A DNA stretch of 64,000 bases from a virus (taxonomy: Duplodnaviria > Heunggongvirae > Uroviricota > Caudoviricetes). The notes below the pieces were generated by a model. It saw only the letters and a list, made by a program, of their open reading frames with translations. It was not told the origin of the DNA and did no database searches. The DNA lies in the IMG/VR virus record IMGVR_UViG_2645727901_000008. One strand, written 5' to 3'. A program made the translations under genes and the position numbers. Shown one piece after another: positions 2,680-63,191 of the stretch (position 1 is the first letter of the stretch; each line of letters starts with the position of its first letter).

Positions 2680-4110
2680 TTACGGGTAAGAAATGCTGAA
2701 CGTTGAAGATTTCACGTCAAGATAAATGAAGTCATTAAAGTAAACAGCATCTTTCATATTTTGTATTGTTATGTCGTAAGACAGAAACATGTCCAGAGAC
2801 TCTATTACTCGCCAAATATCTTTAACTTTTACCTGTGCATAACATTGCTGGGAATCATCATCACTCTGTAGTAATAAACTGAATGATGACGAATCACGGC
2901 CAAAATTATCTTCCAACGCTGCTTTAATAGCATTTTGAGCATCGTCTATCAGAACATTTTTACGTGCAATACCTATAAAATTTATAGTAAATGGCTGTTC
3001 ATTTGTATCTACATACTCGAACCGCTTGTTCAACTCATTTGGAACATTCTCTAGAGCTTTCAGTATTTCTGATTTTAGCTGAGCCTGGCTTACACCCGGC
3101 TTATGTCCGCAAAAGAAAATTTTGTTGATGTTTCGAACGTCAAACCCAGTTATTTTCTCTTGTAACGCTTCGCCCCAAACGTTCAACCATGAAGTTCCAT
3201 GAACAACATTCTGAATGAATTGGCGATAATCACCGCCCCATATCACTTGTTCATCGTATGCAACATAATACTGAGCACGATTTCGAGTTTCTTCTGTAGT
3301 TTCCATACCACTACCACCGGTAATGATCGAATCTGTTTTAAACTCTAGTGACTCCACATATTGAGCGATATTTCCAGCCGGTTCTAACTTTTGTCCTTCA
3401 GCCAAAGTATAGTCGCCAAGGCTAGCCATAACATCGATTCGAACCTGACAGCCTGCTGGAGGCATCATACCCATAGAACCATCACCAAACTTGACTCCAA
3501 GTTGTTCTGTAGGTTTATATGCCAATGAATAGTGCTTACTCTTGTCTCTGGACATTCTAAATAATGGGTTATATGTCCATTTTTCTTCTACGCCATCTGT
3601 AATAATATAAACATCCAGGCTAGAGACTTCTTTTGTTAACTCTCTGGAAAGCAACAATGTCAGAAATAAAGTTTCCTTCTCAATATCAAATGTAACGCTA
3701 ACAGCTTCATGCTGTTTAGTTTCTACGCCAGAAACAGTTCCTCCAGCAGGAATTACAACACTGTTAATAATTGCCAAAGGTGTTTGGTCATTGGCAAGCA
3801 ATTCAGCCCCGGCTGGCAACGTAATATCCCGATCAGTTTTATTGGTTATAGACGTTGTTCCGTATGAAGCACTAACAAATCGCCCTACGTAGCTACGGTC
3901 TTCAGCAACCGCTAAAATACTTGAGCGGCGCGTAGCCGTTGAAATAAGTCCCTCAGTGAGGCCGCGGCTTGCAAATGTACGGGCAATATAAATAAGCTGT
4001 GATCCGAATATAGCGTGCATCTGCACAAACTGACTATTTACAAATCGTGACCACCATGTGTTTTCATTTAACTTGGCATTAAATTTGTCCAGTAATTCTG
4101 TAATCGTCAC
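2680..4110 (-). CDS. Putative baseplate protein (J-like?)
   Basis: 476-aa ORF between a gp25/W-like gene and the tail fiber genes; 4-nt overlap with the upstream ORF suggests coupling. Confidence 0.5.
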   Translation of the reverse strand: MTITELLDKFNAKLNENTWWSRFVNSQFVQMHAIFGSQLIYIARTFASRGLTEGLISTATRRSSILAVAEDRSYVGRFVSASYGTTSITNKTDRDITLPAGAELLANDQTPLAIINSVVIPAGGTVSGVETKQHEAVSVTFDIEKETLFLTLLLSRELTKEVSSLDVYIITDGVEEKWTYNPLFRMSRDKSKHYSLAYKPTEQLGVKFGDGSMGMMPPAGCQVRIDVMASLGDYTLAEGQKLEPAGNIAQYVESLEFKTDSIITGGSGMETTEETRNRAQYYVAYDEQVIWGGDYRQFIQNVVHGTSWLNVWGEALQEKITGFDVRNINKIFFCGHKPGVSQAQLKSEILKALENVPNELNKRFEYVDTNEQPFTINFIGIARKNVLIDDAQNAIKAALEDNFGRDSSSFSLLLQSDDDSQQCYAQVKVKDIWRVIESLDMFLSYDITIQNMKDAVYFNDFIYLDVKSSTFSISYP

Positions 4111-4481
4111 GCGCCCACCCCACTTGATTTCTGCATAACAATATCCATGCTCCCACCTTTCGCATAAAAACTAATTAATAAAGAATCTTCAGAAATTGAT
4201 GTGCAACGAATCCCCTGCACATCCAAACCTGGCAAGTCTTGTCGTAGTTTTTTCATCATTCTCCCTTCAATAGCCACTTCAACTATGTGCGAAGTTTCAG
4301 AGCCGAATGGTTCATGCTTAAATTCTTCCATTGGATTCCCCCAAGAGGGTAAACCATAAACACTCCCTTCAGGGGTTCGTAGCCACTCGTCAAGTCGGGC
4401 CATCCATGCTGCGGTACTTCCTTCTGCAATAATGACACCGCTCTCATTCGTTTGAAGTCTTGCGTCTATTTCATAAAGCAT
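4107..4481 (-). CDS. Putative baseplate wedge protein (GPW/gp25-like)
   Basis: 124-aa ORF of the size and position of gp25/W-family proteins, directly downstream of the giant virion protein; assignment tentative. Confidence 0.45.
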   Translation of the reverse strand: MLYEIDARLQTNESGVIIAEGSTAAWMARLDEWLRTPEGSVYGLPSWGNPMEEFKHEPFGSETSHIVEVAIEGRMMKKLRQDLPGLDVQGIRCTSISEDSLLISFYAKGGSMDIVMQKSSGVGA

Positions 4482-4486
4482 CTGTA

Positions 4487-7400
4487 TTAATCCTCAAGCA
4501 GAGCATCCAGCGACGGGTCATTAATAGTTGTGCTAGCACGTGGTCGCGGTTGCGGCTGCGATGTTTTGACAACCTTATCCGGATCGCCTTTTGTATTGTT
4601 CTTGTTCACATTCAGAAGATCGTTCAGGATAGAGCAGATGTTATCCAGCGCCTTCAACATAGCAGGATCGTTATTTATAGTGTCAGTAGTTAATGGTTGT
4701 CTTATTCCGCTTCGTGCGAGATCTGTTACAGTAGGAAGCTGTGGTGGCAAAGCAAGAAAAGGTTCTTGCACGGCTGACGCAGAGCCAAATATGGCATTAT
4801 TGGCTTCGTTTGATATACCTCTAATGCTATCTGCGGTTTGTTGAATACCATTATTCAGCCAACTACCGGCGCTCTTGGTAAGCGGGCTAATAGCCCTGGC
4901 AATTGTTGAGTTCTGCCCAGTAGCCTGATAAACCAAATCATTAACAATACCTGTGCCATCTACCCCACCAATAAGTTGTGAAACGTTATCGCCAATTGCA
5001 GGTAACACAGCAGAGCTAATACGTTTCAGACCTGTTAATGACGAGTCAAACAAAGAGCCAAGCACCCCCTTATCTTCACCATCAATTACCTTGTATCCAT
5101 TGTCATAAACTGGAATCCCCCTTGAGTTTACAGAGATTTTTTCACTCTCACTTGCCGAAGAAACACCGGAGAGAAGATCCACTGAAGGCATATCGCGTTC
5201 AGCTTTTGGTCTTTTTTGTAAAGCGTCTCTTATATCAGTTACCTGGCTTGCTTTTTGAAATCCAAAAGATTTACCGGTTAAGCTGGATATCTTTTCAGTA
5301 AGAGCCTGATCCATTCCTTTCGCTTTTTCGGAAAGCGAAGATATGGAACCAAACGAAGTCGCCGACGCAAAATCCTTAATCAGGCCAAGGTTTGTACCAG
5401 CAAGGCTGGTAGCCGCACCTCCAAATAAATTACCTACCCCGCTGTCATTTATAGCGATTAATCTCTCAAGCAGACTTGATGGCGAGCCAGTATTAACATC
5501 AACAATCTCTGGATTAATCGGTTGCGATTGATTGCCTGTTTTTTGTGGCTTTTTGACTGCCTGGGCATGTTGTGCAACCTCAATTGGCTGTTGTGTTGCT
5601 GTCGGAACGGCATTCAAAACTGGTTGAGCTGGAGATTTTCCATTAGCATATTTTACCTTGCGACCAACACTATATTGCGAATCGCGGGCAATTAGCTGAC
5701 CACCATTTTCTTTCTGAATTTTATTAATCCGCGCCAATGTTTCGTCAGAGAATTGTCCCTCCCATCGACCAGTGTTAGTGTTAAATGCTCCAAGTGCATT
5801 CTTAATGAACTCATTATTAACTGCCGGATTTCCGCCTTCTTTCGTCGCAATTGCACGAACTAATTGCGTCATAACCTCTGGGTTGCTGACATCTATTTTT
5901 TCATTAGGCGATACACCAAGATATTTACTGACGTTATCAATATATTGGTTAGTATTGTTCTCATTTGGCGGTGCCCATTTTGAAATGATGCTGGATACCG
6001 TCTGTAACTTCTGATATCCCGCTGCAGCACTGGTGCCGTTGTAATAGCTGGAAACCTGGTTTGCCAGTGCCCTGATCCCTTCTTCAGGTGTGTTAAATCG
6101 CGCAAAACGTTGTTCACCCTTTGCATTTGGCGATTCCAGCGTCGCCCCTTCCTGGTTGGCAAAAACAAGATTACCGAGATTATTATTTCGGTAATTGCGG
6201 TTTTTAGCGTTGCTGCCGCCAATATTCAGATCCGCTGCAATGGTGTTGTTGGCAGGTGCACTAAATTCAGTTGGAGAAGTATACCCGTGCTCACCAACTC
6301 CATCCTCGCCATTACGCCCACCTTGTAATTGTTCACCTAGAGAATGAATCGCATCGACAGTTTTTTTGGTGCCGTCTTCAACAGCTTTTTTTACTTGTTT
6401 CGTGTTTTCGTCAGTGGATAAAAATGTATCCTTAAGGCTACCAAAAACAGATTTGGTGATATCTACCGCGCCGTTAACACCACGAGCAATATCTCCGGTA
6501 TCAAAATTCTGAAGTTTTTCACCTGCTCTTTCAAATCCTAGCGCAGAAATTCCTTTCCCTATCAAGTTCGTTGCGCCCGACACCAAGCCACCCATATCGA
6601 GCACATTAGCTGTTGCGTAAGCCGTTTTTTGCTGTTCGGATACAGCATCATCGTCACTTAAACCAAAGGCTGCCTTTTGCGCCTCTGTATCTGTGTAACC
6701 ATCTATGGCGTCATATCCAGCCATTGCCAGCGAACCGATGATAGGGACCGCTCTTGCCGCTGTGGATGCTGCTGATTTAACACCTATTTTTGCTGCACTT
6801 TTGAGGGCTACAGATTCAGTTTTTTTCTTTGCAATGACTTCGCCGGTTTTAATGGTGGCATCTTCAGCCACAACACCAGCTGACTTCACGGCCTTAGCAG
6901 TATTTTTTGTTTCCTTTGCAATCCCCTTTGATGTATCGCTGATAGTGCTTACATCTTTGGGTTTGCTGATCTTATTTTTAACTACTTTTGCTGCTCCGAC
7001 ACCAGTGCCAGCCGCAGCGCTACCGGCAGCAACTTTTTCGCCAGCGGAGAGTGCTTTTTTCCCAAGATTGCGGCCTTTCCTTTTCGATTTGTTCCGTTTA
7101 TTTTTTCCCGTCTGATCACCAATATTGATTTTATTTCTTCTGCTTGCTCGATTTTTCCAGAGATCACTTAAGCCGAACTTATTTCCAGAAGACACTGATT
7201 TCCGAAGCTTAACTATCTCGTCAGAAACATTTTCCAGACCATCAATTATTTTGTTGTCATTGGTCTGAAGGATTTTGGTTTGCTCTTCTACTGCTTGTGC
7301 GGATTTTGTCTCAACAGCGTTATTGAATGCTTTTGCAGATGTTGCTTTTTGAGAATTCACCGCCGCCGGATAAGTAATTACTGGTGATATCGCTTTCGAG

Positions 7401-9255: not shown

Positions 9256-9351
9256 AGAGTATTTTTATAAACCTTTTTCCATTTTTAATCCTTTTTAGAT
9301 CCTTTTTAGGCGTCGCTGGAGCCAGTAGTGGCGCGGGCTGTAGAGGAGGCT

Positions 9352-9469
9352 GGTGTAAGATTTGCCCTCAATTAAATACGATCGGTGTAAGATTCGCCCT
9401 CAAAAGGTGTAAGATTTGCCCTCAAAAGGTGTAGTAATTGCCCTCAAAGTGATGTAAAAATTGCCCTCA
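9352..9469 (+). repeat. Origin iteron array: five direct repeats (ggtgtaagatTtgccctcaa) at about 22-bp spacing
   Basis: Copies start near 9352, 9384, 9406, 9428, 9451, immediately upstream of repA. Confidence 0.8.
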
Positions 9470-9493
9470 CCATTCGAAGGAACACACAGGGTT

Positions 9494-10249
9494 ATGAACA
9501 GAGCGGAATTAACAGCAAAAGCCGTCAGCCTGATTGAGTCAGCGACACCTATTAGTCGTAGTTTGGCACAAGCCAATGAGATCACGGAGGCTGCTTATCA
9601 CCTGACTCGCGACCAAAAGCGACTGTTGTTTATTGTGGTGGGAAGACTTCGCTATGCTTCTAAGGATGGCGTTCTTGGTTCAGGTGCCTGTGAGTTGACG
9701 GTCAACGAATATGCAGAGATGTATAATTTGCCCTCTGCTGAAGCCAGCAAGGATATTCGTAAGGCCATTTCAGGGCTTAGCGAGAAGAAAGTTACGATAT
9801 ATAACCCTGATGAATCGACCGAATCAGAAGACAGTTATGAGTCTTATCCTTGGATGATTAAGGATGCCTATTCACCACGGCGCGGGACTTACATTATTCA
9901 TCTTAATCCATATCTCATGCCGTTTTTTACTCTGCTTGATAAGAGATTCACGAGGCTGAATTTTACCGAAGTATCTCGCCTTACAAATCCTTATTCTATG
10001 CGGCTTTATGAGTCCTTATGCCAGTACAGGAAGGATGATGGAAGCGGCTTTGCCATACTTGGCGTCGAATGGATGCGGGAGCGTTATGGGTTACCAAAAA
10101 GCTATCAGCGGTATGCCGAATTTAAGAGAAGTTTTTTAACGAAGGCTGTAGCAGAGATTGAAAAAAATACAAAAATGAAAATAGTCTTCTCAGAGGTGAC
10201 GGAAGGCGGAAAAGTTACCAGGATAAAATTTACCTATCAGCAGTCTTAA
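9494..10249 (+). CDS. repA: Iteron-binding plasmid replication initiator (Rep_3 family RepA)
   Basis: ATG at 9494 (track ORF starts at TTG 9461 inside the last iteron); C-terminal region (RLYESLCQY..., FKRSFLTKAVAEIEKNTKMKIVF..., KVTRIKFTY) resembles pi/RepE/pSC101-RepA proteins; flanked by iterons. Confidence 0.85.
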   Translation: MNRAELTAKAVSLIESATPISRSLAQANEITEAAYHLTRDQKRLLFIVVGRLRYASKDGVLGSGACELTVNEYAEMYNLPSAEASKDIRKAISGLSEKKVTIYNPDESTESEDSYESYPWMIKDAYSPRRGTYIIHLNPYLMPFFTLLDKRFTRLNFTEVSRLTNPYSMRLYESLCQYRKDDGSGFAILGVEWMRERYGLPKSYQRYAEFKRSFLTKAVAEIEKNTKMKIVFSEVTEGGKVTRIKFTYQQS

Positions 10250-10541
10250 GGGCAATTTTTACACCCTTCTCAAGGTGTAGAATTTGCCCTTAACGATCGG
10301 CAATTGAGGGCAATTTTTACATCTTAATTGCATGTATCTTGTTATTAGCAAGTTGTGTTTTTATATAACGTATTGATATGTAAGGATTATGTAAAAATCA
10401 CCCTCAACCAATATCGTGCGTATCGTGCATTCTTATTGCGCTTTTTTATTATCATTCACTGTGTTAACTGATTGATATTATTGAAATGTGTAAAGAATGC
10501 CTTCATTACAGATGAATTGATGATGTAAAAAATGCCCTCAA
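10249..10541. repeat. Downstream iteron cluster in mixed orientation (possible copy-control locus)
   Basis: Iteron-like copies at about 10249, 10274, 10305, 10391, 10522. Confidence 0.6.
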
Positions 10542-10630
10542 AATTGCGCTACCTTCCCTACCCGCTATCGTTGAGGGCGTGGGTGCTGACGGGAAATGAG
10601 CAACCCTCCAGCACACATAATTAAAGCGCT

Positions 10631-11338
10631 TCAGAATTTAATCACTCCACTCACAGCTCCCTTTAACGCACTTGTAGCCATGCCTGCGGCACCGTTGACC
10701 AAAGCAGAAACACCTGAGCCTGCGGATGTGTATTTCTGGAAAGTGATTGGGTATGACAAGAACTCTGACACCTGATCACGTGAGCGAGTGATTTCCCCAA
10801 GTTGTGTAGGAAATACGCGCATTTCTTCTTCCAGTTCTTTTCCGCCGTCCTGAGTCACCCGGTAGACACGGATTTTCATCAGATATTCAGGAGGAAGGTT
10901 TATTGTTCCATCAGGGTTTGTTACACGAGAACGACGCTCTTTGAACCAGTCCATGATCTTGCCATCTTCGGTATCCCTCACGGTCATAGTGACCGGTCCG
11001 GCGCTAACATAGGTTGGCTTGCTGAATTCTACGCTGCCGATCACCTTGCTTTCTGTCTCAATGTTTCCACTGCTGTAGGTGATATCCTTCACGAACATAT
11101 CGAAGCCGTTCAGGCCATCCACTTCAACGGTCCACTGCCACCCCTGGGCGTAACGGATACGCATAGCGGCAGCAACAATATTTTTCCCGTAGGCAATATC
11201 GCTACTGTAATTCCCGCTTACCCCGCCGCCTGATATGGCTTTATCAAGAATGTCGCTAATGAGGTTGCTGGTGAATGATTTCGTGTTAAATGACAATGCG
11301 GTGGTCAACGTTCTACCAACGCTGCTGAAAATACTCAC
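10631..11338 (-). CDS. Hypothetical virion structural protein
   Basis: 235-aa ORF in a co-directional structural block. Confidence 0.45.
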   Translation of the reverse strand: MSIFSSVGRTLTTALSFNTKSFTSNLISDILDKAISGGGVSGNYSSDIAYGKNIVAAAMRIRYAQGWQWTVEVDGLNGFDMFVKDITYSSGNIETESKVIGSVEFSKPTYVSAGPVTMTVRDTEDGKIMDWFKERRSRVTNPDGTINLPPEYLMKIRVYRVTQDGGKELEEEMRVFPTQLGEITRSRDQVSEFLSYPITFQKYTSAGSGVSALVNGAAGMATSALKGAVSGVIKF

Positions 11339-19436: not shown

Positions 19437-20243
19437 CTATGGTTCCTTTTTGGTGTTCTTTTGGAGCGCATCGATAACGCCTTGTGGCATGATTAAACTG
19501 ATTGCCGGACTCATTACTGCATCATCCAGTAGAGAACCAGTTAACGTGATGGCGACAGCGTTCTCTAAACCTCTGGTTGCCTGAGTGGTTGACGTTTTAA
19601 TGCGACCTGTAAGGGCTACGACACCCTCACTTGCTGAGTTAATTTCGGAGAGTAAAACTTCGGCGGCTGTCACTGCTTCCCGTAAAGCATCAATTTCATC
19701 CTGAGTAATGACTGGAGCCTGAGCGCCCCCAGCACCACCCTGTCCACCATTGCTTTCACCACCACCAGCACTTCCGGTAGCTTCAATTTTTGCGTTAATG
19801 GCGTTCATGGCGGTTTTCAGAGCATCAAGTTTTAGCGCCGTCAATGCGTCCGTCAGAGATTGCGGAATGGAAACATTCCCCATTCCCTCAACAAGGGCGA
19901 AAGCAGGTATGGGGGTCAGCTCGTTACCTTTTGCGTAGCATTCCCAGCCAATCTTCATCTGTAACAGCTCTGATGGTTTGGTGTATGGGGAAAGAGAATC
20001 AGCCAGTAATGAAGACGCTTTGCTGGCCTCATTGAGCTGTTCAGAAAAGCCAAGCAATTGAGTAGTCCAGGCCGAAACAGAATCAGGATAGGTTTTATCG
20101 GCGTGAACTATTCCCTGTATGGCGCTGGCGAGCGATGAGGCTTTTACAGAAGCTGCCCGGCTTATGGTTATAGATTCTGGTGTAGAGATACCGGCATCTG
20201 ACAGAATTTTGAAGGCTTTAACTTCACCTATTGAATCAAGCAT
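19437..20243 (-). CDS. Hypothetical protein coupled to the PAAR-like gene
   Basis: Probable start MLDSIGEVKAF at 20243, overlapping the PAAR stop (TAATG); Gly-rich linker GGGESNGGQGGAGGAQ. Confidence 0.5.
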   Translation of the reverse strand: MLDSIGEVKAFKILSDAGISTPESITISRAASVKASSLASAIQGIVHADKTYPDSVSAWTTQLLGFSEQLNEASKASSLLADSLSPYTKPSELLQMKIGWECYAKGNELTPIPAFALVEGMGNVSIPQSLTDALTALKLDALKTAMNAINAKIEATGSAGGGESNGGQGGAGGAQAPVITQDEIDALREAVTAAEVLLSEINSASEGVVALTGRIKTSTTQATRGLENAVAITLTGSLLDDAVMSPAISLIMPQGVIDALQKNTKKEP

Positions 20244-20527
20244 TATGCAACCTGAAAAATATCCTCGCCGTTGGCGATAACAGAACCACAAGAAAGCGGA
20301 TCGCCTACACAGACAACTCCCTTTCCACCTATCGAAAACCATACTCGCGTCGATACAGCTGCCCCTGGATGTGCACTGTTACCGTCAGTGTGACTGGGAA
20401 ACATGGCACCATCTACAACAACTGGCTTACCGTTAACGGTGAACCAGGGAACGGTTTCAGCTACCAGTCGCGGCGGAAATCCTCCGTGACCAGAACAAAG
20501 GGTGTCGCTGGTGGCTATTGCGCTCAT
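20243..20527 (-). CDS. PAAR-like spike-tip protein
   Basis: 94 aa with three PAAR-like elements (CSGHGG, NGKPVVVDG...H, GGKGVVCVGDPLSCGS). Confidence 0.55.
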   Translation of the reverse strand: MSAIATSDTLCSGHGGFPPRLVAETVPWFTVNGKPVVVDGAMFPSHTDGNSAHPGAAVSTRVWFSIGGKGVVCVGDPLSCGSVIANGEDIFQVA

Positions 20528-20599
20528 TCTTCACCTCCTGGTTATCCTCCTATTGTCATCACTTTGTTATTTCGTCATTCAAACGGAGAGTTAAATTTC

Positions 20600-20790
20600 G
20601 GAATATTTTTGTATTCTCAATTCGTTCTCAAATAAATCTCACTGTCAGACCATCATTCGGTGGGTGATTAAGATATTCTCAAAATAAACTCAACAATCGC
20701 TCTTTTTATCTCGTTTGGTGTGGATTTTTGGGTGCTTCTCTTTTAAAATTACATTTTGGTTCTCAAATGTGTCTCAGAAGTGGAGCAAGA
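20600..20790. repeat. parC-like centromere: repeated TTCTCAA(A) elements upstream of parM
   Basis: At least five copies of (a/g)ttctcaa within about 190 bp preceding parM. Confidence 0.5.
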
Positions 20791-20792
20791 AG

Positions 20793-21749
20793 ATGCGCAT
20801 TTTTATCGATGATGGTTCAACCAATATCAAAATGCTGTGGGAGCACGACGGGGAAACTCGCACTCACATCAGCCCTAACAGCTTTAAGCGCGGATGGTCA
20901 GCAACATTTGGTGCTGGCAAGCCATTTAACTATGTCATTGACGACGAAAAGTATTCGTATGATTTGATCTCGCCAGATGTTCTGCCGACGAATAACGTGG
21001 AATGGCAATACAGCCCGCTTAACGTCCTGGCTGTTCACCATGCCCTGCTGACAAGTGGCATTGAGCCGCAGGAAGTAGAAATTGTGGTTACGCTGCCACT
21101 GGCGGAGTTTTACGACGACGACGCGCAATACAATCTCGATAACATCGAGCGCAAGAAAGCCAGCCTTATGCGCCCCGTCACGCTGAATAAAGGCAATGTA
21201 TTCACGATTAAGAAAGTTACGGTACGCCCGGAGTCTATTCCGGCAGGAATTGGTCTGTGCGACAATCTGAACCCTGCCCACTCTGTTCTTATCGTCGATT
21301 TGGGTGGAACTACCCTTGATGTTTCAATGGTCGCCGGGCAAATGACGGCAGTTTCCCGTGTTTTTGGCGATTCGAATCTTGGTGTATCACTGGTCACCAG
21401 GGAAGTAAGGCAAGCACTTGCCAGAGCCAATACCGAAACGTCAAATTACAATGTCGATCAGCTCATTATTAACCGCCACGATGAAGATTATCTGAACGAC
21501 AATATCAATGACCCATCAGCGGTTGGTGATGTGAAAAAGGCCATTGCCGCAAGCATTGACCGTCTGCGTACCCGCGTTCTTGATGTGATTGGCGACTTTA
21601 AAGGATATACGCATGTCATGGTGATCGGTGGTGGCGCACCGCTGGTGGCAGATGCAATTCGCGAGCAAGTTAATATTCGTGATGACCGTTTCTTCGTGGC
21701 GGATGACCCGCAACTTGCTCTTGTTCATGGCCTGAAAGCAATCGGTTAA
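20793..21749 (+). CDS. parM: Actin-like segregation ATPase ParM/StbA
   Basis: MRIFIDDGSTNIK..., HISPNSFKRGW, VDLGGTTLD, MVIGGGA motifs matching R1 ParM; ATG at 20793. Confidence 0.9.
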   Translation: MRIFIDDGSTNIKMLWEHDGETRTHISPNSFKRGWSATFGAGKPFNYVIDDEKYSYDLISPDVLPTNNVEWQYSPLNVLAVHHALLTSGIEPQEVEIVVTLPLAEFYDDDAQYNLDNIERKKASLMRPVTLNKGNVFTIKKVTVRPESIPAGIGLCDNLNPAHSVLIVDLGGTTLDVSMVAGQMTAVSRVFGDSNLGVSLVTREVRQALARANTETSNYNVDQLIINRHDEDYLNDNINDPSAVGDVKKAIAASIDRLRTRVLDVIGDFKGYTHVMVIGGGAPLVADAIREQVNIRDDRFFVADDPQLALVHGLKAIG

Positions 21750-21756
21750 CGAGGTA

Positions 21757-22101
21757 ATGTCCATGTCTCAGGAACGTAAGAAAGTGATGATTTATCTTCG
21801 CCCAGAGGCTTATGCCAATGAAAAGGCGGCGAGCGAGAAGATAAAAAAACATAGCGATATGGCAAGAACCGCATTGTTGGCAGGGCTTGCGCTGGGAGAA
21901 GTCGATAGCAGGCTTCCAGGATTACTGGCTTCCCTGCTGACCGAAGACAATAACCCGGAGCTGATCCGAAAAATGCTGGCATCCTTCCTGGAACTACCAG
22001 CTGCGGTTGAGGAGCGCCCTGCCTCCATTGAGCCAGTGAAGGAGCAAGTTGTTGCCAAAAGCGCGTCGGCGCGTAATCTTGCTGATTCTCTACCTGATTG
22101 A
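21757..22101 (+). CDS. parR: ParR/StbB-like centromere-binding adaptor
   Basis: 114-aa ORF immediately downstream of parM. Confidence 0.65.
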   Translation: MSMSQERKKVMIYLRPEAYANEKAASEKIKKHSDMARTALLAGLALGEVDSRLPGLLASLLTEDNNPELIRKMLASFLELPAAVEERPASIEPVKEQVVAKSASARNLADSLPD

Positions 22102-22119
22102 TGGTCAAAACTCTATTTT

Positions 22120-22147
22120 AAGGCTGCAAATTGCAGCCTTTTTTGTT
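22120..22147 (+). terminator. Rho-independent terminator (aaggctgcaaattgcagcctt + T-tract)
   Basis: GC-rich hairpin followed by TTTTGTT directly after parR. Confidence 0.7.
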
Positions 22148-22370
22148 CCTTTTTGGTGTTAAAATGGCATCAAAGCGACACCAAATGGGAGTCGTTAATG
22201 TACTGGTGCATACTTGGTGCTAATTTAGTGCTATTCAGGCGCAAAACGTGTACCAGTATCCATCGGATTTGATGTTATACTTCCGGCATTAAGAATGGTG
22301 CTATTGCTGTACCGTTGATGTGTAAATGTGGTGCTGTTTTAGTGTAAAAATAGAGCCAAAATAAAGCCGA
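22148..22370. repeat. Repeated TGGTGCT / TGTACCAGT elements upstream of parA (candidate centromere or operator)
   Basis: Multiple tggtgct(a/g)t and gtgtaccag copies; similar elements recur at 23320-23380 and 19385-19460. Confidence 0.4.
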
Positions 22371-22373
22371 GGT

Positions 22374-23021
22374 ATGGACATGATTATCCTGGTAGCAAGT
22401 CAAAAGGGAGGCTGTGGCAAGTCAACCACCAGCGTCAATATTTGTGCCGAGCTGGCCCGAAAAAACAAAGATGTCGTCTTGATTGATGCTGATAAGCAGG
22501 GAACGGCAGCTCGATGGGCGTCAGACCGTAATTCGTCCGAAGTGACACCAGTTATTCATTGCGTCCAGAAGTTTGGAAATATTCGAGAAACTCTGCTCGA
22601 TCTTAACAATCGATATGAATACGTGGTTGTTGATACCGCAGGTCGTGATAGTAAAGAGATGCGCACAGGTATAACGGCGGCGGATATTCTATTGGTTCCA
22701 TTCAGGCCGTCTCAGCCAGATTTGGACACGCTGGCACACTTTGTTGAGGTGTTTGAAGAGGCTTTGGATCTGATGCCTAATCCCAATATTAAGGCGTGCG
22801 CAGTCTTAACTATGGCCCCGTCAAATCCGGTTGTGAATGAAGCAAATGAGGCCAAAGAGTATCTGGCAGAATATCCGCAACTGAAATTGCTGAAAACCAT
22901 TATTCGCGATCGCAAGGTTTACCGCGACTGCATGGCTGAAGGAAAGGGTGTTGTTGAGATGGATAACGGTAAGGCGAAAGGTGAAATTCAGATGTTAGTT
23001 AAGGAGTTGCTAAGTGATTAA
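22374..23021 (+). CDS. parA: ParA-family partition ATPase (small, type Ib-like)
   Basis: Deviant Walker A KGGCGKST near the N-terminus; 215 aa. Confidence 0.85.
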   Translation: MDMIILVASQKGGCGKSTTSVNICAELARKNKDVVLIDADKQGTAARWASDRNSSEVTPVIHCVQKFGNIRETLLDLNNRYEYVVVDTAGRDSKEMRTGITAADILLVPFRPSQPDLDTLAHFVEVFEEALDLMPNPNIKACAVLTMAPSNPVVNEANEAKEYLAEYPQLKLLKTIIRDRKVYRDCMAEGKGVVEMDNGKAKGEIQMLVKELLSD

Positions 23022-23298
23022 ACGTCGAGAACCAGCTAAAGCGCCTAAGGCTACTGATCCGGAACTTGAGCGAAGAATTGAAGAGTTCGCCAGCAAAGCG
23101 GATTTAATCCCGGATGAAATTACAACGGGGAAGGTGCTTGATAAAGATGCGCCGCGCGACTTTAAATCCATACGCGTGAGCTTTAATGAATATGAGTACG
23201 GGGTGCTCGATGCGTTAAGCAAAAAGCTTAACCGCAGCAAATTGAACCTGATTCGACATGCCATCCTCATGCTTGCTGAGTCAGAGGATGCTAAATGA
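23014..23298 (+). CDS. Small DNA-binding partition partner (ParG/RHH-like)
   Basis: 94-aa ORF overlapping parA stop; basic N-terminus and RHH-like C-terminus. Confidence 0.55.
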   Translation: MIKRREPAKAPKATDPELERRIEEFASKADLIPDEITTGKVLDKDAPRDFKSIRVSFNEYEYGVLDALSKKLNRSKLNLIRHAILMLAESEDAK

Positions 23299-23418
23299 TA
23301 CCGATTTGATGCCTTATTGGCGTCTATCGTGTACCAGTGCAATAATGTGTCAAAGTGGTGCCATAATGGTGTTAATATACAGCCATATTGATATCAAATT
23401 GACACTGTATCGGCATCA

Positions 23419-23442
23419 AAAAGCCCCAGGCGGGGCTTTTTC
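23419..23442 (+). terminator. Rho-independent terminator (gccccaggcggggc + TTTTT)
   Basis: Hairpin flanked by A-tract and T-tract after the parA operon. Confidence 0.7.
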
Positions 23443-24350
23443 TATTTGAGCGTTGCAATGATATCGTTAGCGACTATTCGCGTGGATGCTTTGCATGACA
23501 CGGACCGTCTGGCTGGCATGTGGTACAGCTTAAAACCGTTTCTTTCGTACAATTCGCGAATTTTTGGCGCGCCACTGTTTGTTATTACTATCTTTGCACC
23601 GCGCTGGTGGGCCGCCACCAACAGTGATACAAGCCGTTTTTGTTCATCGAAAAGGAAGCTATTTCCTGAATAGCTGGTAAATCCCTCTGTATCTGGCAGC
23701 GGCTCATACGGCGGGTCACAAAAAATCACATCGTCTTTACCAGCCGCCTCGATGACACCAGCAAAGTCACCTGATACAAAGGAAGTGTTTTTGAGTACGT
23801 CATCAGCCAAAAATGCCTTCATCTCTGCATGTGGGAAGTAGGGCGCTTTGTATTTGCCATACCCCACGTTGAACTCGCCATTTTGGTTGTACCGCGTTAC
23901 GCCATTAAAACAGTGACGATTAAGGTACAAAAATGCGGCAGCATGATGTAGTTGGTCATACTTTCCTCTGTTAAATGCCTCACGCACTTCGAGGTAAGCG
24001 TCAGCGTTGTTGTAATTTTTGAAAAAACTATATGACAGCGTGACGAGCGAATGTCCTTCTCGCTGCAATGTCTGATAGAAGTTAATCAGGTCACCGTTAA
24101 TATCATTAAGCAGGTTGTGGCGAAATCCTGCATTCGTAAATACGGAACCGCCACCAACGAATGGTTCTATTAACCGCTTACCGTGTGGTAGATGCTCAAG
24201 CACTGTAGGCAATTCTGAGAATTTACCACCTACCCATTTGAATATCGGACGCTCATATTCATCCGGAGTCCGAATGGTGCGCATATAGCTAATTTCAGCC
24301 ATCGTATCCTGTTTTTCTATGGCTATGCTTGCTATAGATTTACTCATAGA
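23442..24350 (-). CDS. dam: Dam-like N6-adenine DNA methyltransferase
   Basis: FKWVGGK and DPPY motifs; likely start MSKSIASIA near 24350 (track ORF 23442..24443 overlaps the upstream MTase). Confidence 0.8.
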   Translation of the reverse strand, partial: SMSKSIASIAIEKQDTMAEISYMRTIRTPDEYERPIFKWVGGKFSELPTVLEHLPHGKRLIEPFVGGGSVFTNAGFRHNLLNDINGDLINFYQTLQREGHSLVTLSYSFFKNYNNADAYLEVREAFNRGKYDQLHHAAAFLYLNRHCFNGVTRYNQNGEFNVGYGKYKAPYFPHAEMKAFLADDVLKNTSFVSGDFAGVIEAAGKDDVIFCDPPYEPLPDTEGFTSYSGNSFLFDEQKRLVSLLVAAHQRGAKIVITNSGAPKIRELYERNGFKLYHMPARRSVSCKASTRIVANDIIATLK

Positions 24351-25018
24351 GCACCCCCTTATTCGCTTCGAAAACTGCCTTTGCGAATCCATGTGGAGTA
24401 GCACTTCGAAAATTAGCCCTGTCAGGCCCTGGTGGCGCGGCATGGATTCTGTTATCTGGCTTGCCTAATGATTCGTCCATTAGGGCATCAGGCATGACAA
24501 AGCCCTGGCCGCTCCAGAGGCATGTTTTTTTTGTGTAGTTATCTTCCTGACAATATGCAGTGAAGAAGTAAGGGTGAAAGATGTGATCTGGCTTACGCCA
24601 GAATGTCGATATTTTGCTGACCGGATTTTCAATCATGTACGGACAACCGATCATCTTTGCAATGTCATAACACTGCCAGACAACCTGCATTGCTTTGAAC
24701 TGGAAAACCGGATCTTTATTAGCCTTGTCCGAAAACCAGCGCGCGCCGGAAACAGCCAGGTCAGTACACGGTGGGAACCCGGCCAGAAACACGATGCGCT
24801 GCAAATTCTTACGGAGAAAAGCGTATACTTCATCGCTATCGATGATCGCACTAATACGCGTCAGAACGGCACCTGATTGCATCCGCTCGTCACTGGTCGA
24901 TAAGTGCTGTGGATCGACGATAGCGGCATCGACACCGTATTCCAGCCAGGGGGCAACCATTGCCCCCGTAAAATCACAAAGACTCACAACAAGCTGTCGG
25001 TTATTATCGTTCTGCTTC
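24340..25018 (-). CDS. dcm: C5-cytosine DNA methyltransferase (Dcm-like)
   Basis: Motif I ([16 protein letters not shown]), PC motif (FPPCTDLA), ENP motif (MIENP); probable GTG start near 25018. Confidence 0.7.
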
Positions 25019-25909
25019 ACCGCCAATGGCCTCCACCAGCGCGTTAAACAGTGCAGATAATTCGCCCGTAAAGAGCACGAAATCAGCATCAAATCGTTGT
25101 GCTACATCCTCCCGGTCGATATCGTCGTTCTGGTCATAGAGATCATCACAGAATGTCAGGGCTTTGATACTCATATCATCGTTGACTCTGAACGACGCAC
25201 GGTCCATCCAGTTAATTGCAACGGTCGTAGCTACTTTCCCCGCCTCAATGTGAGACATAATCTCGTCGGACTGTAGATCAACTTTGTTGCAGCGAACGGC
25301 ACCACCATTATCGAGCAGACCCTTTAATGTGGCGTCTTCACCTGCTGTAAATCCGGCAGGGAAGCCGCTTTTAAACCACTCGGTCATTGTAATTTCCAGC
25401 GGTTCGCGTGGTGTGAATGGAATGACAGGCAGGCTGCCGAGCGACTTTCGCAATAAAGCCAGCTGGTCCTCTGCCTTTTTGGCGCTGCTTGCCTCAACGA
25501 ATACCAGATGGTTGCTGCGGTCGATCAGGATTTTGGCGAGTGATTTTCTCGTGAACGCGCGAGGCAAAAGTGAATGCAGGACTTCATCTTTAAGACTGTC
25601 TCTTTCCGTTTTCTTCAGCTTGCGGGCTTGCTCTTCTTCGAGTTTCAGGACTTTTTTCTGCAACTCTTCCTTGAGCACCTGCGAGGGGAGAATTTTTTCT
25701 TCTCGCTTATGCTGTATTAGCAGAAAACCCTGGTATTCATGGGTGAGGTTGTCACCAAGAACAGGTGTCCAACCGACTTTAGCTGTGTCCTGAGAACCGC
25801 AAGGAGTAAACACGAATTTGCTAAGAGCATCGGATACTTCTGCGGCACTCCAGTTAACTTCACGTGAAAGACGATAGATGAAGATGTTTTTGAAAGCGAC
25901 TGATCTCAT
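25004..25909 (-). CDS. rdgC: Recombination-associated protein RdgC
   Basis: Conserved blocks shared with E. coli RdgC ([45 protein letters not shown]...GGEA). Confidence 0.9.
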
Positions 25910-34195: not shown

Positions 34196-34215
34196 GTTAC
34201 GCAGCGGAGGCAGAA

Positions 34216-34608
34216 TTGAAAAGATTGACTATTGCTTTACTGGCGTCTTTCCCTTTGATCGCGAGCGCCGGAAATTTACAAGTTAAGTGCGGTCGGTTTG
34301 ATATAAAAATCTATCCAGATGCCATATTTCTGAATGGGAATAAGGTTGATAACGTACACCGAAAAACTAAATCTGACGTAATGAGCTATGTGTTCCAGGA
34401 GTATGCGGAGATGGGGGGAACTTACACGCTGTACTCGCTGGATGTTCCTTCTCGCGGTGATATGACATTATCCCATCAATGGCAGAACGCCGATGGCGAA
34501 GCTCTGCGCGAAGTTAAAACAGAAAAATGCGGCACTTTCCATTCTTTTAAAGGGAAAGTGCCAAATGTTAAATCTGTGCTTGAAAAACAGCGCGCAGGTG
34601 ATTTTTAA
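34216..34608 (+). CDS. Secreted protein (signal peptide)
   Basis: MKRLTIALLASFPLIASA signal peptide; 130 aa. Confidence 0.55.
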   Translation: MKRLTIALLASFPLIASAGNLQVKCGRFDIKIYPDAIFLNGNKVDNVHRKTKSDVMSYVFQEYAEMGGTYTLYSLDVPSRGDMTLSHQWQNADGEALREVKTEKCGTFHSFKGKVPNVKSVLEKQRAGDF

Positions 34609-34696
34609 ACTGCGTTAGCACTTTGAACATGGCGACAACACATCTTGGTGGCTGCGTTGTCGCTGTATGTTTTTATAATATAAAGCATTAAAGTTT

Positions 34697-35326
34697 TCAT
34701 TTTTGTCGGATCTTTTCCAGCATATTTAATTCATTATCACTTTCTGCTGCTGAGACGGTTGGCCTCACATTTCCGAAATATTTCCTGTGAGACTCATGAC
34801 TTATGTATTCACCGACAGTTTCATTCTTGAATATACGAATTTGACATATGCGAGATCCAACAATAAGTTCTACAGGGCTATTCCCATGATTAAATAACTC
34901 TAAAGATATACAGCCTCTGTACCCTGGTTGTATCATGGTATTTAATGAAAGACCAAGCCTTGTATAGCTGCTTCTGGACAATACATCAGCGTAGCAATCT
35001 GGTGGCAAACAAACATATTCTAATGTTGTTGCCAGTACCACTTGATTCGGGTAAACAATGAATCTATCCCCAAGATCTCTCCTTGTTTCCTGGAAAAATG
35101 TTCTGATTGGTTGATGAGTATCATTGTTTTTTGATGGAATTAACTCTATTGACGGCTTCCTTGTCATAATAGACACTAAAAAATCGTAACCAAGTCTAAG
35201 GTCTATGGTGAAGTTCCCAATTTGGTTTTTATTTAGAAGAGGTTCAATGAACAACGACTCAGGTTCTTCTGATTCATAATATTGCAGCAATTCAGCTTTG
35301 CTTAGGAGATTCATTGTGCACTCCAT
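34697..35326 (-). CDS. dCTP deaminase (Dcd)/dUTPase-superfamily protein
   Basis: Blocks parallel to E. coli Dcd (IDLRLGYDF; VLATTLEYVCLPPD; SRSSYTRLGLSL; GYRGCISLELFNHGNSPVELIVGSRICQI); AT-rich. Confidence 0.7.
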   Translation of the reverse strand: MECTMNLLSKAELLQYYESEEPESLFIEPLLNKNQIGNFTIDLRLGYDFLVSIMTRKPSIELIPSKNNDTHQPIRTFFQETRRDLGDRFIVYPNQVVLATTLEYVCLPPDCYADVLSRSSYTRLGLSLNTMIQPGYRGCISLELFNHGNSPVELIVGSRICQIRIFKNETVGEYISHESHRKYFGNVRPTVSAAESDNELNMLEKIRQK

Positions 35327-38509: not shown

Positions 38510-38688
38510 AGCCTCCTTTGACTAAGTTAAGGAGCTACCGCGTGAGGTTCCAATCTCAATGGCGGTAGCACTGACTGGGTTGGAACTACCGGCGTCAAAG
38601 GGAACCGGCCTGCCTTTCGGCAGCCCAGCCAGCACTACCATTGATCTCTGAGCTAAACGCTACGTATGGCTGTGCGATGGCATGACAC
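38510..38688 (-). ncRNA. Candidate structured leader / antisense-RNA region (c4-like position)
   Basis: Non-coding stretch with several stems (gctaccgc...gcggtagc; ggaaccggcctgcctttcggcagcc) between a terminator and the icd/ant-like genes; speculative. Confidence 0.25.
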
Positions 38689-38710
38689 AAAAAAAGACGC
38701 TTTCGGCGTC
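38689..38710 (-). terminator. Rho-independent terminator on the minus strand (gacgccgaaagcgtc + U7)
   Basis: Hairpin followed by T7 on the minus strand, downstream of ref. Confidence 0.65.
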
Positions 38711-38815
38711 TGTGTCGCCTTTGACATTATCCGGGGTTCCAATCCCGGCACCCGTTTTTCTAAGGTGCCGTAGAAATATACCCCACGATAATGCCAGGGC
38801 GCAACAGTCAGTATT

Positions 38816-61508: not shown

Positions 61509-61584
61509 TGGTGGCCCCTACCGGACTTGAACCGGTGACCGTGCGATTATGAGTCGCCAGCTCTAACCACTGAGCTAAAGGGCC
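61509..61584 (-). tRNA. tRNA with CAU anticodon (tRNA-Ile2-like; Met not excluded)
   Basis: Minus-strand GGCCCTTTAGCTCAGTGGTTAGAGC...CTCATAA...GGTTCAAGTCC...GGGGCCACCA; close to E. coli ileX as recalled; CCA encoded. Confidence 0.85.
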
Positions 61585-61594
61585 AATTAGTGTT

Positions 61595-61705
61595 TTATTT
61601 TCGACGCCTGAGATTCTTCGCGACTTGTTCTACGCCGTATACGATCACAAGTAGAAACAGCAAAAACCATCCAGGGTTCTTATCGATATACGTCCAAAAA
61701 TCCAT
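61595..61705 (-). CDS. Possible 36-aa membrane peptide
   Basis: MDFWTYIDKNPGWFLLFLLVIVYGVEQVAKNLRRRK; start overlaps upstream stop (TGATG). Confidence 0.3.
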   Translation of the reverse strand: MDFWTYIDKNPGWFLLFLLVIVYGVEQVAKNLRRRK

Positions 61706-61869
61706 CATGAGTTCCTGAACGCACCTTCAATAATCGGCAATAGCAATACCACAGCTACTGAAACTAATGCCCCATCAGCCAACACCGACATCACTTTGCT
61801 GGTGAAATCCACCAGTACGGACAAAACGAGAAAGCCAATGGCGCCCGCAATACGCGCCTTGCCAATCAT
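61705..61869 (-). CDS. Possible 54-aa membrane peptide
   Basis: MIGKARIAGAIGFLVLSVLVDF...; ATG overlaps the TerB-like stop (TAATG). Confidence 0.35.
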   Translation of the reverse strand: MIGKARIAGAIGFLVLSVLVDFTSKVMSVLADGALVSVAVVLLLPIIEGAFRNS

Positions 61870-62303
61870 TACAGATAATCTTCCACACGAAGGCCAAGAC
61901 GGCGACCAACCTCTTCCAGAACCTTATGCTCCGCAGGTTCGATTTCACCATCTGCTTCAGCGATCGTGAGCATGTTCACGAAGACTTCTTCCGCTTCTTT
62001 GGGATCGTTTTTGATATCTTCAATTTCGCGGAGGATATTCATGCGACCAACACGGAAACCAGCTTCCAGTTGCTCAGTAAAACGGGTGATTGTTGCGGTA
62101 ATTTCGTTGCCAAAATGACTTAAGCGAGGATTAGAGCGGACAAGCTGATCAAGTTTCGCTGTTTCTTCCTTTTCGATTTCACCATCTGCGGCAGACACCA
62201 GCAAACAGCCACCGATGATGGCCTCCATCAGATCGCGATTCTCAACCCTTTTCAGCTCTACTTTTGCTGAAGCGACTTTCTTACCGAAAAATTTACCGAA
62301 CAT
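61869..62303 (-). CDS. TerB-like (tellurite-resistance family) protein
   Basis: Repeated ADGEIE-type motifs (SAADGEIEKEE; AEADGEIEPAE); likely start MFGKFFGKK at 62303. Confidence 0.6.
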   Translation of the reverse strand: MFGKFFGKKVASAKVELKRVENRDLMEAIIGGCLLVSAADGEIEKEETAKLDQLVRSNPRLSHFGNEITATITRFTEQLEAGFRVGRMNILREIEDIKNDPKEAEEVFVNMLTIAEADGEIEPAEHKVLEEVGRRLGLRVEDYL

Positions 62304-63187: not shown

Positions 63188-63191
63188 AATT

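What the first reader, a model, noticed from the sequence alone, without database searches (positions are those of the whole stretch)
20600..23442. Two different partition cassettes side by side, about 10 kb from the replicon
A type II parMR system (20793..22101) with a TTCTCAA-repeat centromere is followed immediately by a type Ib-like small ParA plus RHH partner (22374..23298) with its own TGGTGCT/GTACCAG repeats. Each has its own terminator. The Rep_3 iteron replicon is about 10 kb away, separated by structural genes. This differs from the P1 repA-parA-parB arrangement as I recall it.
Basis: partly seen in the sequence, partly recalled or inferred. Interest (0 to 1): 0.4.

Follow-up and report, generated by a model that had tools for sequence, protein, structure and literature searches.

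The report
Tandem ParMRC plus ParA/RHH partition loci
The layout is standard in phage D6 and about 120 sequenced relatives, and the same pairing of system types is common on plasmids, so the finding is real but ordinary.

Summary

- **First cassette (20614-22140):** an R1/pB171-type ParM/ParR system, preceded by 11-bp-phased TCTCA iterons and followed by a terminator.
- **Second cassette (22154-23441):** a 213-aa type Ib ParA, 43% identical to the pB171-type par2 ParA. It is translationally coupled to a 94-aa probable ribbon-helix-helix (RHH) protein. TGGTRY hexamer arrays lie upstream (over the promoter) and downstream, and a bidirectional terminator closes the cassette.
- **Replicon:** the Rep_3 iteron replicon lies 10.5 kb upstream, beyond the tail, sheath and capsid genes.

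The arrangement is not unusual. Phage D6 (GenBank MF356679) has the same order and annotation. About 119 of 121 D6-like plasmids in PLSDB carry the second cassette. A 2026 survey counted type II plus type I-RHH on 971 PLSDB plasmids, with the pB171 double par locus as the classic case.

Both cassettes are under strong purifying selection. Two details appear new:
- The 94-aa protein belongs to an unnamed RHH family whose TGGTRY centromere pattern recurs on Aeromonas, Serratia and Marinobacter plasmids.
- In this window the ParA cassette is a deeply diverged allele (dS about 1.25, against 0.1 for parM) set in a backbone 97-99% identical to D6.

Function has not been tested.

The parts
20614..20781 (+). 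parC-like centromere and promoter region of the type II system. It holds at least seven 11-bp units with core TCTCA/ACTCA in three groups: 20614/20625/20636, 20676/20687 and 20760/20771.
   Evidence: TCTCA occurs 6 times in 233 bp against 1.39 per kb background, the maximum in the window. The region is about 97% identical in D6. ParR binding is inferred, not shown.
20793..21749 (+). parM, an actin-like segregation ATPase of 318 aa.
   Evidence: Pfam StbA_N 1.7e-69 and ParM C-terminal domain 6.6e-55. PDB R1 ParM E about 1e-111. 43% identical to the pB171-type ParM. dN/dS 0.026 against D6.
21763..22101 (+). parR/stbB, the centromere-binding adaptor.
   Evidence: Pfam Plasmid_stab_B 3.5e-11. PDB 2jd3 (pB171 StbB) 1.1e-6. 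PHROG 8671 partition protein 1.7e-60. The D6 annotation starts at the MSQ codon.
22120..22140 (+). Intrinsic terminator that ends the parMR operon.
   Evidence: 9-bp stem followed by a T-run. The hairpin is nearly invariant across six relatives, with a single loop-position change (A3).
22154..22345 (.). Upstream (parC1-like) array of TGGTRY/RYACCA hexamers. Exact copies are at 22154(+), 22178(-), 22204(+), 22215(+), 22250(-), 22296(+) and 22329(+). Near-copies are TAGTGC at 22226 and TAGTGT at 22340. The array brackets the putative promoter.
   Evidence: 7 copies against 0.56 expected, 0 of 2000 shuffles. 11-bp phasing is seen. Hexamers persist in six relatives while the surrounding sequence diverges and some sites flip strand. 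The same motif and layout occur in Aeromonas, Serratia and Marinobacter cassettes.
22273..22281 (+). Putative extended -10 element (TGtTATACT) of the parA operon promoter.
   Evidence: Read directly from the sequence. The TG-N-TATACT positions are invariant in all six aligned relatives. The promoter scan did not report it, so this is an inference.
22380..23021 (+). parA, a small type Ib Walker-type partition ATPase of 213 aa. It carries the deviant Walker A motif KGGCGKS.
   Evidence: PDB ParF 4dzz 1.3e-17 over the full length. NCBIfam ParA_partition 1.3e-47, at 162 bits against a cutoff of 180. 43% identity, E 1e-58, to the pB171-type par2 ParA. 93% amino-acid identity to D6 orf60. dS 1.25, dN 0.029.
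23014..23298 (+). Partner gene encoding a 94-aa probable RHH centromere-binding and autoregulatory protein. Its GTG start overlaps the parA stop by 8 nt. It has a conserved N-terminal M-I/V-K-R-R motif and an IExFAxxAD helix.
   Evidence: PHROG 9169 3.8e-49, function unknown; Arc-like repressor 0.0049. The family has 124 clusters at 50% identity. Members hit only RHH-type Pfam families: NikA-like 11/60, RHH_1 7/60, RHH_7, TraY. The profile's best PDB hits are the RHH proteins HP0222 and CopG, aligned over the beta-alpha-alpha segment, at E 0.1-0.2. pN is 0.06 in the RHH part against a saturated pS.
23331..23372 (.). Downstream (parC2-like) hexamer array: GTACCA at 23331, TGGTGC at 23356, TGGTGT at 23367.
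   Evidence: 3 copies against 0.26 expected, p about 0.0005. A 41-nt block at 23345-23385 is 76% identical to 22318-22358 upstream. Downstream arrays are also present in D6 and four other D6-like plasmids and in the three distant cassettes.
23418..23441 (.). Hairpin AAAAAGCCCC-aggc-GGGGCTTTTT between the partner gene and the convergent dam gene. It is a likely bidirectional terminator.
   Evidence: I2: 10/10 complementary arms, 4-nt loop. The terminator scan missed it, probably because the A/T arms absorb the T-run.
9343..10541 (+). Context only: the Rep_3 iteron replicon. The initiator gene is 9461-10249. Five 22-bp iterons lie at 9343-9470 and further copies at 10246-10541.
   Evidence: Pfam Rep3_N 3.4e-29 and Rep3_C 9.8e-16. 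Iterons. Equivalent to D6 orf42.

Best explanation
The region is the plasmid-maintenance (partition) module of a D6-like (P1g2 group) phage-plasmid. It holds two independent, complete, head-to-tail segregation systems of different mechanistic classes.

System 1 is type II ParMRC.
- ParR (N-terminal RHH) would bind the 11-bp TCTCA iterons of parC upstream of parM.
- ParM-ATP filaments captured by two ParR/parC complexes would then push sister prophage plasmids apart.
- ParR binding over the promoter would autoregulate the operon.

System 2 is a type Ib ParA system of the pB171-par2/TP228-ParF class.
- Dimers of the 94-aa RHH protein would coat the TGGTRY hexamer arrays on both sides of the operon.
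- The upstream array overlaps the promoter, so it would also autoregulate.
- The basic N-terminal tail (MIKRR...) would stimulate nucleoid-bound ParA-ATP. That would give ratchet-type equipositioning of plasmid copies over the nucleoid.

Together the two would give redundant or additive stability to a low-copy prophage whose Rep_3 replicon sits elsewhere in the genome.

What is shown: the gene identities, the repeat arrays and their enrichment, conservation across relatives, and purifying selection. What is inferred: DNA binding, autoregulation, ATPase stimulation, and that both systems are active.
For: Protein identities:
- ParM and ParR.
- ParA aligns over its full length with the experimentally studied family: 43% to the pB171-type par2 ParA at E 1e-58 and ParF at 1.3e-17. 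Walker A KGGCGKS is intact (alignment).
- The partner shows RHH signals and its coding frame overlaps parA.

Repeats:
- Both repeat clusters are the densest in the 64 kb and are 11-bp phased.
- TGGTRY arrays lie upstream and downstream in 6 of 6 D6-like elements, although the intergenic sequence is otherwise unalignable.
- The same layout is seen in homologous two-gene cassettes on Aeromonas, Serratia and Marinobacter plasmids. This mirrors parC1-parA-parB-parC2 of pB171 par2 (PMC4270457).

Selection:
- parA dN/dS is 0.023 at dS 1.25.
- parM dN/dS is 0.026.
- The RHH part of the partner has pN 0.06 against saturated pS.

Precedent: both cassettes are present in about 119-121 D6-like plasmids. 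The combination type II plus type I-RHH was counted on 971 PLSDB plasmids (PMC13245405).
Against: - No experiment on D6 or any relative was found for either cassette. The D6 genome paper (PMC5800970) could not be read.
- ParA scores below NCBIfam's curated cutoff (162 against 180 bits).
- The partner has no significant match to any solved structure or to the pB171-type ParB. Its AlphaFold models are low confidence, with pLDDT 52-55.
- Only about 7 parC iterons are evident.
- Promoter positions are read by eye and were not found by the scan.
Confidence: 0.8

Rival explanations
1. Only one of the two cassettes does the work. The other is a redundant passenger with little or no contribution to stability under normal conditions, as reported for parABS2 of SCP1.
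For: In the dual-system plasmid SCP1 only one system was critical under laboratory conditions (PMC13245405). The ParA cassette is exchanged as a module: it is 84% (parA) and 72% (partner) identical at the nucleotide level to D6, inside a backbone 97-99% identical. That shows it behaves as a replaceable unit.
Against: Both cassettes are intact in essentially all D6-like elements. Both show dN/dS of about 0.02-0.03. The centromere-like arrays are maintained despite intergenic turnover. A useless cassette would be expected to decay or be lost in some lineages.
Confidence: 0.12
2. The ParA/RHH pair is not a DNA-segregation system. It would instead be a ParA-like positioning or regulatory module with another role: a CopG-like copy-number or transcription regulator paired with a MinD/MipZ/VirC1-like ATPase, or a module that positions some other cargo.
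For: RefSeq names homologues 'division plane positioning ATPase MipZ' or 'AAA family ATPase'. Pfam also matches MipZ and VirC1. The partner was called 'cop' in PMC6799933. ParA is below the NCBIfam ParA_partition cutoff.
Against: The best full-length matches are bona fide plasmid partition ATPases: ParF, and the pB171-type ParA at 43%. The MipZ and MinD matches cover only the N-terminal P-loop. The architecture is the type Ib partition signature: a small RHH gene coupled downstream, with repeat arrays over the promoter and after the operon. The cassette travels on unrelated plasmids.
Confidence: 0.06

Closest known systems
Partition region of Escherichia phage D6 (MF356679; orf58 StbA, orf59 StbB, orf60 'possible ParA', orf61) and other D6-like/P1g2 phage-plasmids such as pYU39_89
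   Same: The gene order is identical, as are the flanks (upfB, then the upfC/PAAR gene on one side; dam, dcm and rdgC on the other). The Rep_3 replicon is also about 10.5 kb away. parC-parMR is 97.4% identical at the nucleotide level. ParA is 93% and the partner 78% identical at the amino-acid level.
   Different: The ParA/partner cassette here is a deeply diverged allele: 84% and 72% nucleotide identity, dS 1.25, and intergenic regions that cannot be aligned. By partner identity it is the minority type, with 9-11 of about 119 plasmids at 90% or more. The glnS gene that follows the cassette in D6 and in L008-L011 is absent.
Double par locus of pB171-type plasmids (par1 = parMRC type II; par2 = parC1-parA-parB-parC2 type Ib), seen here in E. 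coli 55989p
   Same: The same two system classes lie adjacent. ParM is 43%, ParA 43% (E 1e-58) identical, and ParR is related (2jd3, 1e-6). In both, the ParA partner is about 91-94 aa and centromere repeats lie both upstream and downstream of the type Ib operon (PMC4270457).
   Different: In the pB171 type the two operons are divergent and share one central control region. Here they are in tandem and separated by a terminator. The partner protein shows no detectable homology to the pB171-type ParB. The repeat motif also differs: TGGTRY here, TCACA/TCATAC-like there.
TP228 ParF/ParG (type Ib, RHH centromere-binding protein)
   Same: ParF is the best solved-structure match to ParA, over the full length. 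Both systems pair a small RHH partner carrying a flexible basic N-terminal tail with repeats that overlap the promoter (established knowledge of ParG).
   Different: No sequence match to ParG was found, whether against Pfam or against PDB sequences. The repeats differ, and here there is a second array downstream of the operon.
P1 repA-parA-parB-parS (type Ia)
   Same: Both serve a related myovirus plasmid prophage. Neighbouring phage genes (capsid gene 23, upfB, upfC, dmt, hrdC) are syntenic.
   Different: P1 has a large ParA, an HTH ParB and an IHF-dependent parS, and these are contiguous with repA/oriR between gene 23 and upfA. Here there is no type Ia system. The partition cassettes sit between the upfC/PAAR gene and dam, and the replicon is a Rep_3 gene next to the tail tube gene.

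Membership tests
Type II ParMRC partition system | Actin-fold ParM ATPase | tested here: met
   Pfam StbA_N 1.7e-69 and ParM C-terminal domain 6.6e-55. R1 ParM structures match at E about 1e-111 over the full length.
Type II ParMRC partition system | ParR adaptor gene immediately downstream of parM | tested here: met
   Pfam Plasmid_stab_B 3.5e-11. PDB 2jd3 (pB171 StbB/ParR) 1.1e-6. The gene starts 8-14 nt after the parM stop.
Type II ParMRC partition system | Array of phased iterons (parC) upstream of parM, around the promoter | tested here: met
   At least seven 11-bp-phased TCTCA/ACTCA units at 20614-20781. TCTCA density is the maximum in the 64 kb. ParR binding itself cannot be tested with these tools.
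Type Ib (small ParA + RHH ParB) partition system | Small (about 200-220 aa) deviant-Walker-A ParA without an N-terminal HTH domain | tested here: met
   213 aa with KGGCGKS. End-to-end alignments to ParF (206 aa) and to the pB171-type ParA (214 aa, 43%). The score is below the NCBIfam ParA_partition cutoff (162 against 180 bits).
Type Ib (small ParA + RHH ParB) partition system | Small centromere-binding protein with a ribbon-helix-helix fold encoded downstream of parA | tested here: inconclusive
   The position and overlapping start are met. Support for the fold is weak but consistent. Family members hit only RHH-type Pfam families. The profile's best PDB hits are HP0222 and CopG over the beta-alpha-alpha segment at E 0.1-0.2. 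PHROG Arc-like repressor scores 0.0049. AlphaFold gives helices at 59-71 and 74-91, but at pLDDT 52-55.
Type Ib (small ParA + RHH ParB) partition system | Repeat array (centromere/operator) overlapping the par promoter | tested here: met
   Seven TGGTRY hexamers against 0.56 expected bracket an invariant TGnTATACT element. They are conserved as a motif in relatives.
Type Ib (small ParA + RHH ParB) partition system | Stabilises a plasmid in cis; the centromere-binding protein stimulates ParA ATPase | not testable with these tools
   Needs stability assays and biochemistry.
pB171-type double par locus | Divergent par1 and par2 operons sharing a central parC1 control region | tested here: not met
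   Here both operons are on the + strand and a terminator lies between them. The pB171-type locus in 55989p is divergent.
pB171-type double par locus | ParB homologous to pB171 ParB | tested here: not met
   BLASTP E 0.12. hhalign probability 1.2%.
P1-type (Ia) partition module | Large ParA, HTH ParB and parS, contiguous with repA | tested here: not met
   No such genes lie in the region. P1 layout.
D6-like (P1g2) phage-plasmids | Synteny and high identity with the phage D6 backbone around the locus | tested here: met
   97-99.7% nucleotide identity in the flanks and in parMR. Same gene order. The capsid gene matches 121 such plasmids.

The most novel reading that the evidence does not exclude
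The 94-aa partner may define an uncharacterised family of RHH centromere-binding proteins. The family has no Pfam model and about 124 clusters at 50% identity. Its TGGTRY-hexamer centromeres flank the operon on both sides on plasmids from Enterobacterales to Aeromonas and Marinobacter. Within D6-like phage-plasmids this cassette is swapped as anciently diverged alleles (dS above 1, against 0.1 for the neighbouring parMR). The swapping might alter partition specificity or incompatibility between co-resident phage-plasmids, while the ParMRC cassette stays constant.
Probability: 0.2. Interest if true: 0.35.

Novelty: already known. Interest (0 to 1): 0.15.

Why it matters
As stated, the finding matters little. 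It re-identifies the annotated partition module of D6-like phage-plasmids, and the pairing of system classes is already catalogued as common.

It does have modest practical value. The two cassettes and their centromere repeats are candidate incompatibility determinants for D6-like phage-plasmids, which are widespread in clinical E. coli, Shigella and Salmonella and which standard plasmid-typing schemes miss. The tandem arrangement, insulated by a terminator, would also be a clean natural system for asking whether a pushing (ParM) and a positioning (ParA) machine cooperate or interfere on one replicon.

Tried and rejected
- **Partner structure.** Sequence and profile searches against PDB sequences gave nothing significant. 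Two AlphaFold runs, one on the single sequence and one on a shallow 13-sequence alignment, gave pLDDT 52-55. I therefore ran no fold search, because the matches would be meaningless.
- **Literature.** The D6 genome paper (PMC5800970) and the pB171 papers (PMC64986, PMC2775997) are not held. The pB171 record itself is not in the collections. I reached a pB171-type locus indirectly, through the 2jd3 ParR fragment.
- **Survey supplement.** The supplement of the 2026 dual-partition survey did not list the D6-like accessions I tried.
- **Apparent 43%-identity partner variant in pMUB-MIN14-1 (L007).** This turned out to be a frameshift-ridden assembly and was discarded.
- **Is the cassette the sole partition system on a small Aeromonas plasmid?** That plasmid carries a second small ATPase plus a 94-aa gene pair, so the test was uninformative.
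- **Rfam scan.** No known RNA lies in 20-24 kb.
- **Promoter scan.** It found nothing convincing upstream of either operon. The promoter assignments are by eye and by conservation only.
Full report
**What the window is**

The window is a D6-like phage-plasmid, the P1g2 group of PMC10879196.
- The region 20600-22162 is 96.5% identical to Escherichia phage D6.
- 123 PLSDB plasmids match it. Almost all are non-mobilizable elements of about 90 kb from E. coli, Salmonella and Shigella.
- The capsid gene of the window matches 121 such plasmids.

**The first cassette (type II)**

The genes:
- ORF 20793-21749 is ParM (Pfam StbA_N 1.7e-69 and ParM C-terminal domain 6.6e-55; R1 ParM structures at E about 1e-111).
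- The next ORF is ParR/StbB (Pfam Plasmid_stab_B 3.5e-11; PDB 2jd3, the pB171 ParR, 1.1e-6). It probably starts at ATG 21763, as annotated in D6, rather than at 21757.

The repeats and terminator:
- Upstream, TTCTCAA occurs four times and the core TCTCA six times in 233 bp, against 1.39 per kb in the window. This is the densest cluster anywhere in the 64 kb.
- The copies fall in three groups with 11-bp phasing: 20614/25/36, 20676/87 and 20760/71. This is the expected form of a parC centromere.
- A clean terminator follows at 22120-22140.

**The second cassette (type Ib)**

The ParA gene:
- The ATPase ORF very probably starts at ATG 22380. That gives MIILV, as in D6, and a proper spacing from GAGG. 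The protein is then 213 aa.
- Its best solved relative is the TP228 partition ATPase ParF, aligned end to end at 1.3e-17.
- NCBIfam ParA_partition scores 1.3e-47, slightly under the curated cutoff.
- I recovered a pB171-type double par locus on E. coli 55989p by searching with the 2jd3 ParR fragment. The window ParA is 43% identical over its full length (E 1e-58) to that par2 ParA.

The partner gene:
- The 94-aa downstream gene starts at GTG 23014 and overlaps the parA stop by 8 nt. It has no Pfam family and is PHROG 9169, function unknown.
- An exhaustive profile search found a family of 124 clusters of proteins of about 65-100 aa.
- Conserved features of the family are an N-terminal M-V/I-K-R-R, an IExFAxxAD helix, and a C-terminal K-x-I-x-V-P-F-N-E-Y-E-Y...G-R-S-K-L-N-x-I-R-x-A-I segment.
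- Members hit only RHH-type Pfam families: NikA-like 11/60, RHH_1 7/60, DUF6290, TacA1, RHH_7, TraY.
- The family profile's best PDB matches are the RHH proteins HP0222 and CopG, aligned exactly over the strand-helix-helix segment, but only at E 0.1-0.2.
- AlphaFold places helices at 59-71 and 74-91 at low confidence.
- RHH is therefore probable but not proven. The protein is not detectably related to the pB171-type ParB and has no match to ParG.

**Repeats of the second cassette**

- Upstream of parA there are 7 copies against 0.56 expected, and none of 2000 shuffles reaches this.
- Downstream of the partner there are 3 copies against 0.26 expected. 11-bp phasing is seen at 22204/15/26, 22329/40 and 23356/67.
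- A 41-nt block is shared between the upstream and downstream regions.
- Across D6 and four other D6-like plasmids the intergenic sequences are largely unalignable, yet hexamers persist both upstream and downstream. Some have flipped in orientation.
- A TGnTATACT extended -10 element is invariant across the same set.
- Homologous two-gene cassettes on Aeromonas, Serratia and Marinobacter plasmids show the same RYACCA/TGGTRY arrays on both sides of the operon.
- This layout parallels parC1-parA-parB-parC2 of pB171 par2 (PMC4270457), although the pB171-type repeats are a different motif.
- The hairpin at 23418-23441 sits between the partner gene and the convergent dam gene and looks like a bidirectional terminator.

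**Replicon and comparison with P1**

- The Rep_3 initiator is at 9461-10249, with 22-bp iterons on both sides.
- Tail tube, baseplate, sheath and capsid genes lie between it and parM (D6 annotation).
- In P1, parS-parB-parA-incA-repA-oriR are contiguous between capsid gene 23 and upfA.

**Is it unusual? No.**

- D6 has exactly this order and distance. Its GenBank record already labels the genes StbA, StbB and 'possible ParA partitioning function'.
- Four further D6-like plasmids show the same order.
- The partner gene is found in 119 E. coli, Salmonella and Shigella plasmids, against 121 that carry the D6-type capsid gene.
- PMC6799933 lists 'cop, parA, stbB and parM' as the partition system of a D6-like Salmonella plasmid.
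- More generally, a 2026 survey of PLSDB counted 971 plasmids that combine a type I RHH-ParB system with a type II system, and calls that combination previously reported (PMC13245405).
- The pB171-type ParR alone is on 1036 PLSDB plasmids.
- The differences from the pB171 locus are organisational. The operons here are in tandem and insulated by a terminator rather than divergent with a shared control region, and the centromere-binding protein is unrelated.

**Are both cassettes functional?**

Between the window and D6:
- parM has dS 0.105 and dN 0.003.
- parR has pS 0.062 and pN 0.004.
- parA has dS 1.25 and dN 0.029 (ratio 0.023).
- The partner has saturated synonymous sites (pS 0.84) and pN 0.12, falling to 0.06 in the RHH part.

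Both cassettes are thus under strong purifying selection, which argues against a decaying remnant.

The figures also show a mosaic. The flanks and parMR are 97-99.7% identical to D6. parA is 84% and the partner 72% identical, and the surrounding intergenic DNA does not align. The ParA cassette of this window is therefore an old allele brought in by recombination, and by partner identity it is the minority type. Whether that changes partition specificity is unknown. The hexamer core and the predicted DNA-contacting strand (KSIRV) are the same in both alleles, which argues against a simple specificity switch.

**Mechanism**

By homology, the ParR/parC complexes would seed ParM filaments that push plasmid copies apart. 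The RHH protein bound to the two TGGTRY arrays would stimulate nucleoid-bound ParA-ATP and distribute copies over the nucleoid, while repressing its own promoter. The two together would give redundant or additive stability. No step has been tested for D6-like elements in the literature available to me.

**Verdict**

The feature is already known and typical of its family. Residual interest lies in the uncharacterised RHH protein family, its conserved centromere pattern, and the allelic exchange of the cassette.

Noticed in passing
window 23299-23445, compared with L001 10712-12690 (D6) and L008-L011: D6 and four other D6-like plasmids carry a phage-borne glutaminyl-tRNA synthetase gene (glnS) between the partner gene and dam. 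This window lacks it. The partner gene is followed directly by a bidirectional terminator and the convergent dam gene.
   Followed up: partly
window 22102-23441 against the flanks 19437-22101 and 24340-25092: There is a sharp mosaic boundary. The flanks are 97-99.7% identical to D6, but parA is 84% and the partner 72% identical, and the intergenic DNA cannot be aligned. parA has dS 1.25 against 0.105 for parM. The type Ib cassette appears to have been replaced by a deeply diverged allele.
   Followed up: yes
window 20243-20527 (-) and 19437-20342 (-): A PAAR-motif protein (the P1 upfC homologue) and the upfB homologue lie immediately upstream of parC. In P1 the same genes lie on the far side of the rep-par module, so the maintenance genes occupy a different slot in the shared phage backbone.
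   Followed up: partly
window 23442-25092 (-): Separate Dam-type (D12 class) and putative cytosine methyltransferase genes, followed by rdgC/hrdC. These correspond to the single fused dmt gene of P1.
   Followed up: no
window 38558-38768 (-): C4 antisense RNA (Rfam RF01695, 77 bits) and an isrK-like RNA (RF01394, 63 bits). This is presumably the immI-type immunity region of the prophage.
   Followed up: no
window 61512-63360 (-): Four tRNA genes in a cluster (Rfam tRNA hits).
   Followed up: no
L013 (Aeromonas caviae p3_SCLZS52) 10303-11195 and 34199-35163: This 45-kb plasmid carries two separate pairs of a small ParA-like ATPase gene and a gene of about 90 aa. It may be an example of two type I-RHH systems on one plasmid.
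   Followed up: no
L007 (E. coli pMUB-MIN14-1) 3600-6300: parM, parA and other genes are broken by many frameshifts. This looks like an uncorrected long-read assembly rather than biology, and it produced a spurious 'divergent' partner hit.
   Followed up: yes
alignment A5 (partner family), residues 1-5 and 22-30 of the window protein: The N-terminal M-V/I-K-R-R motif and the IExFAxxAD helix are conserved across 60 distant family members. They are candidates for the ParA-stimulating peptide (an arginine or lysine finger) of this uncharacterised centromere-binding family.
   Followed up: partly
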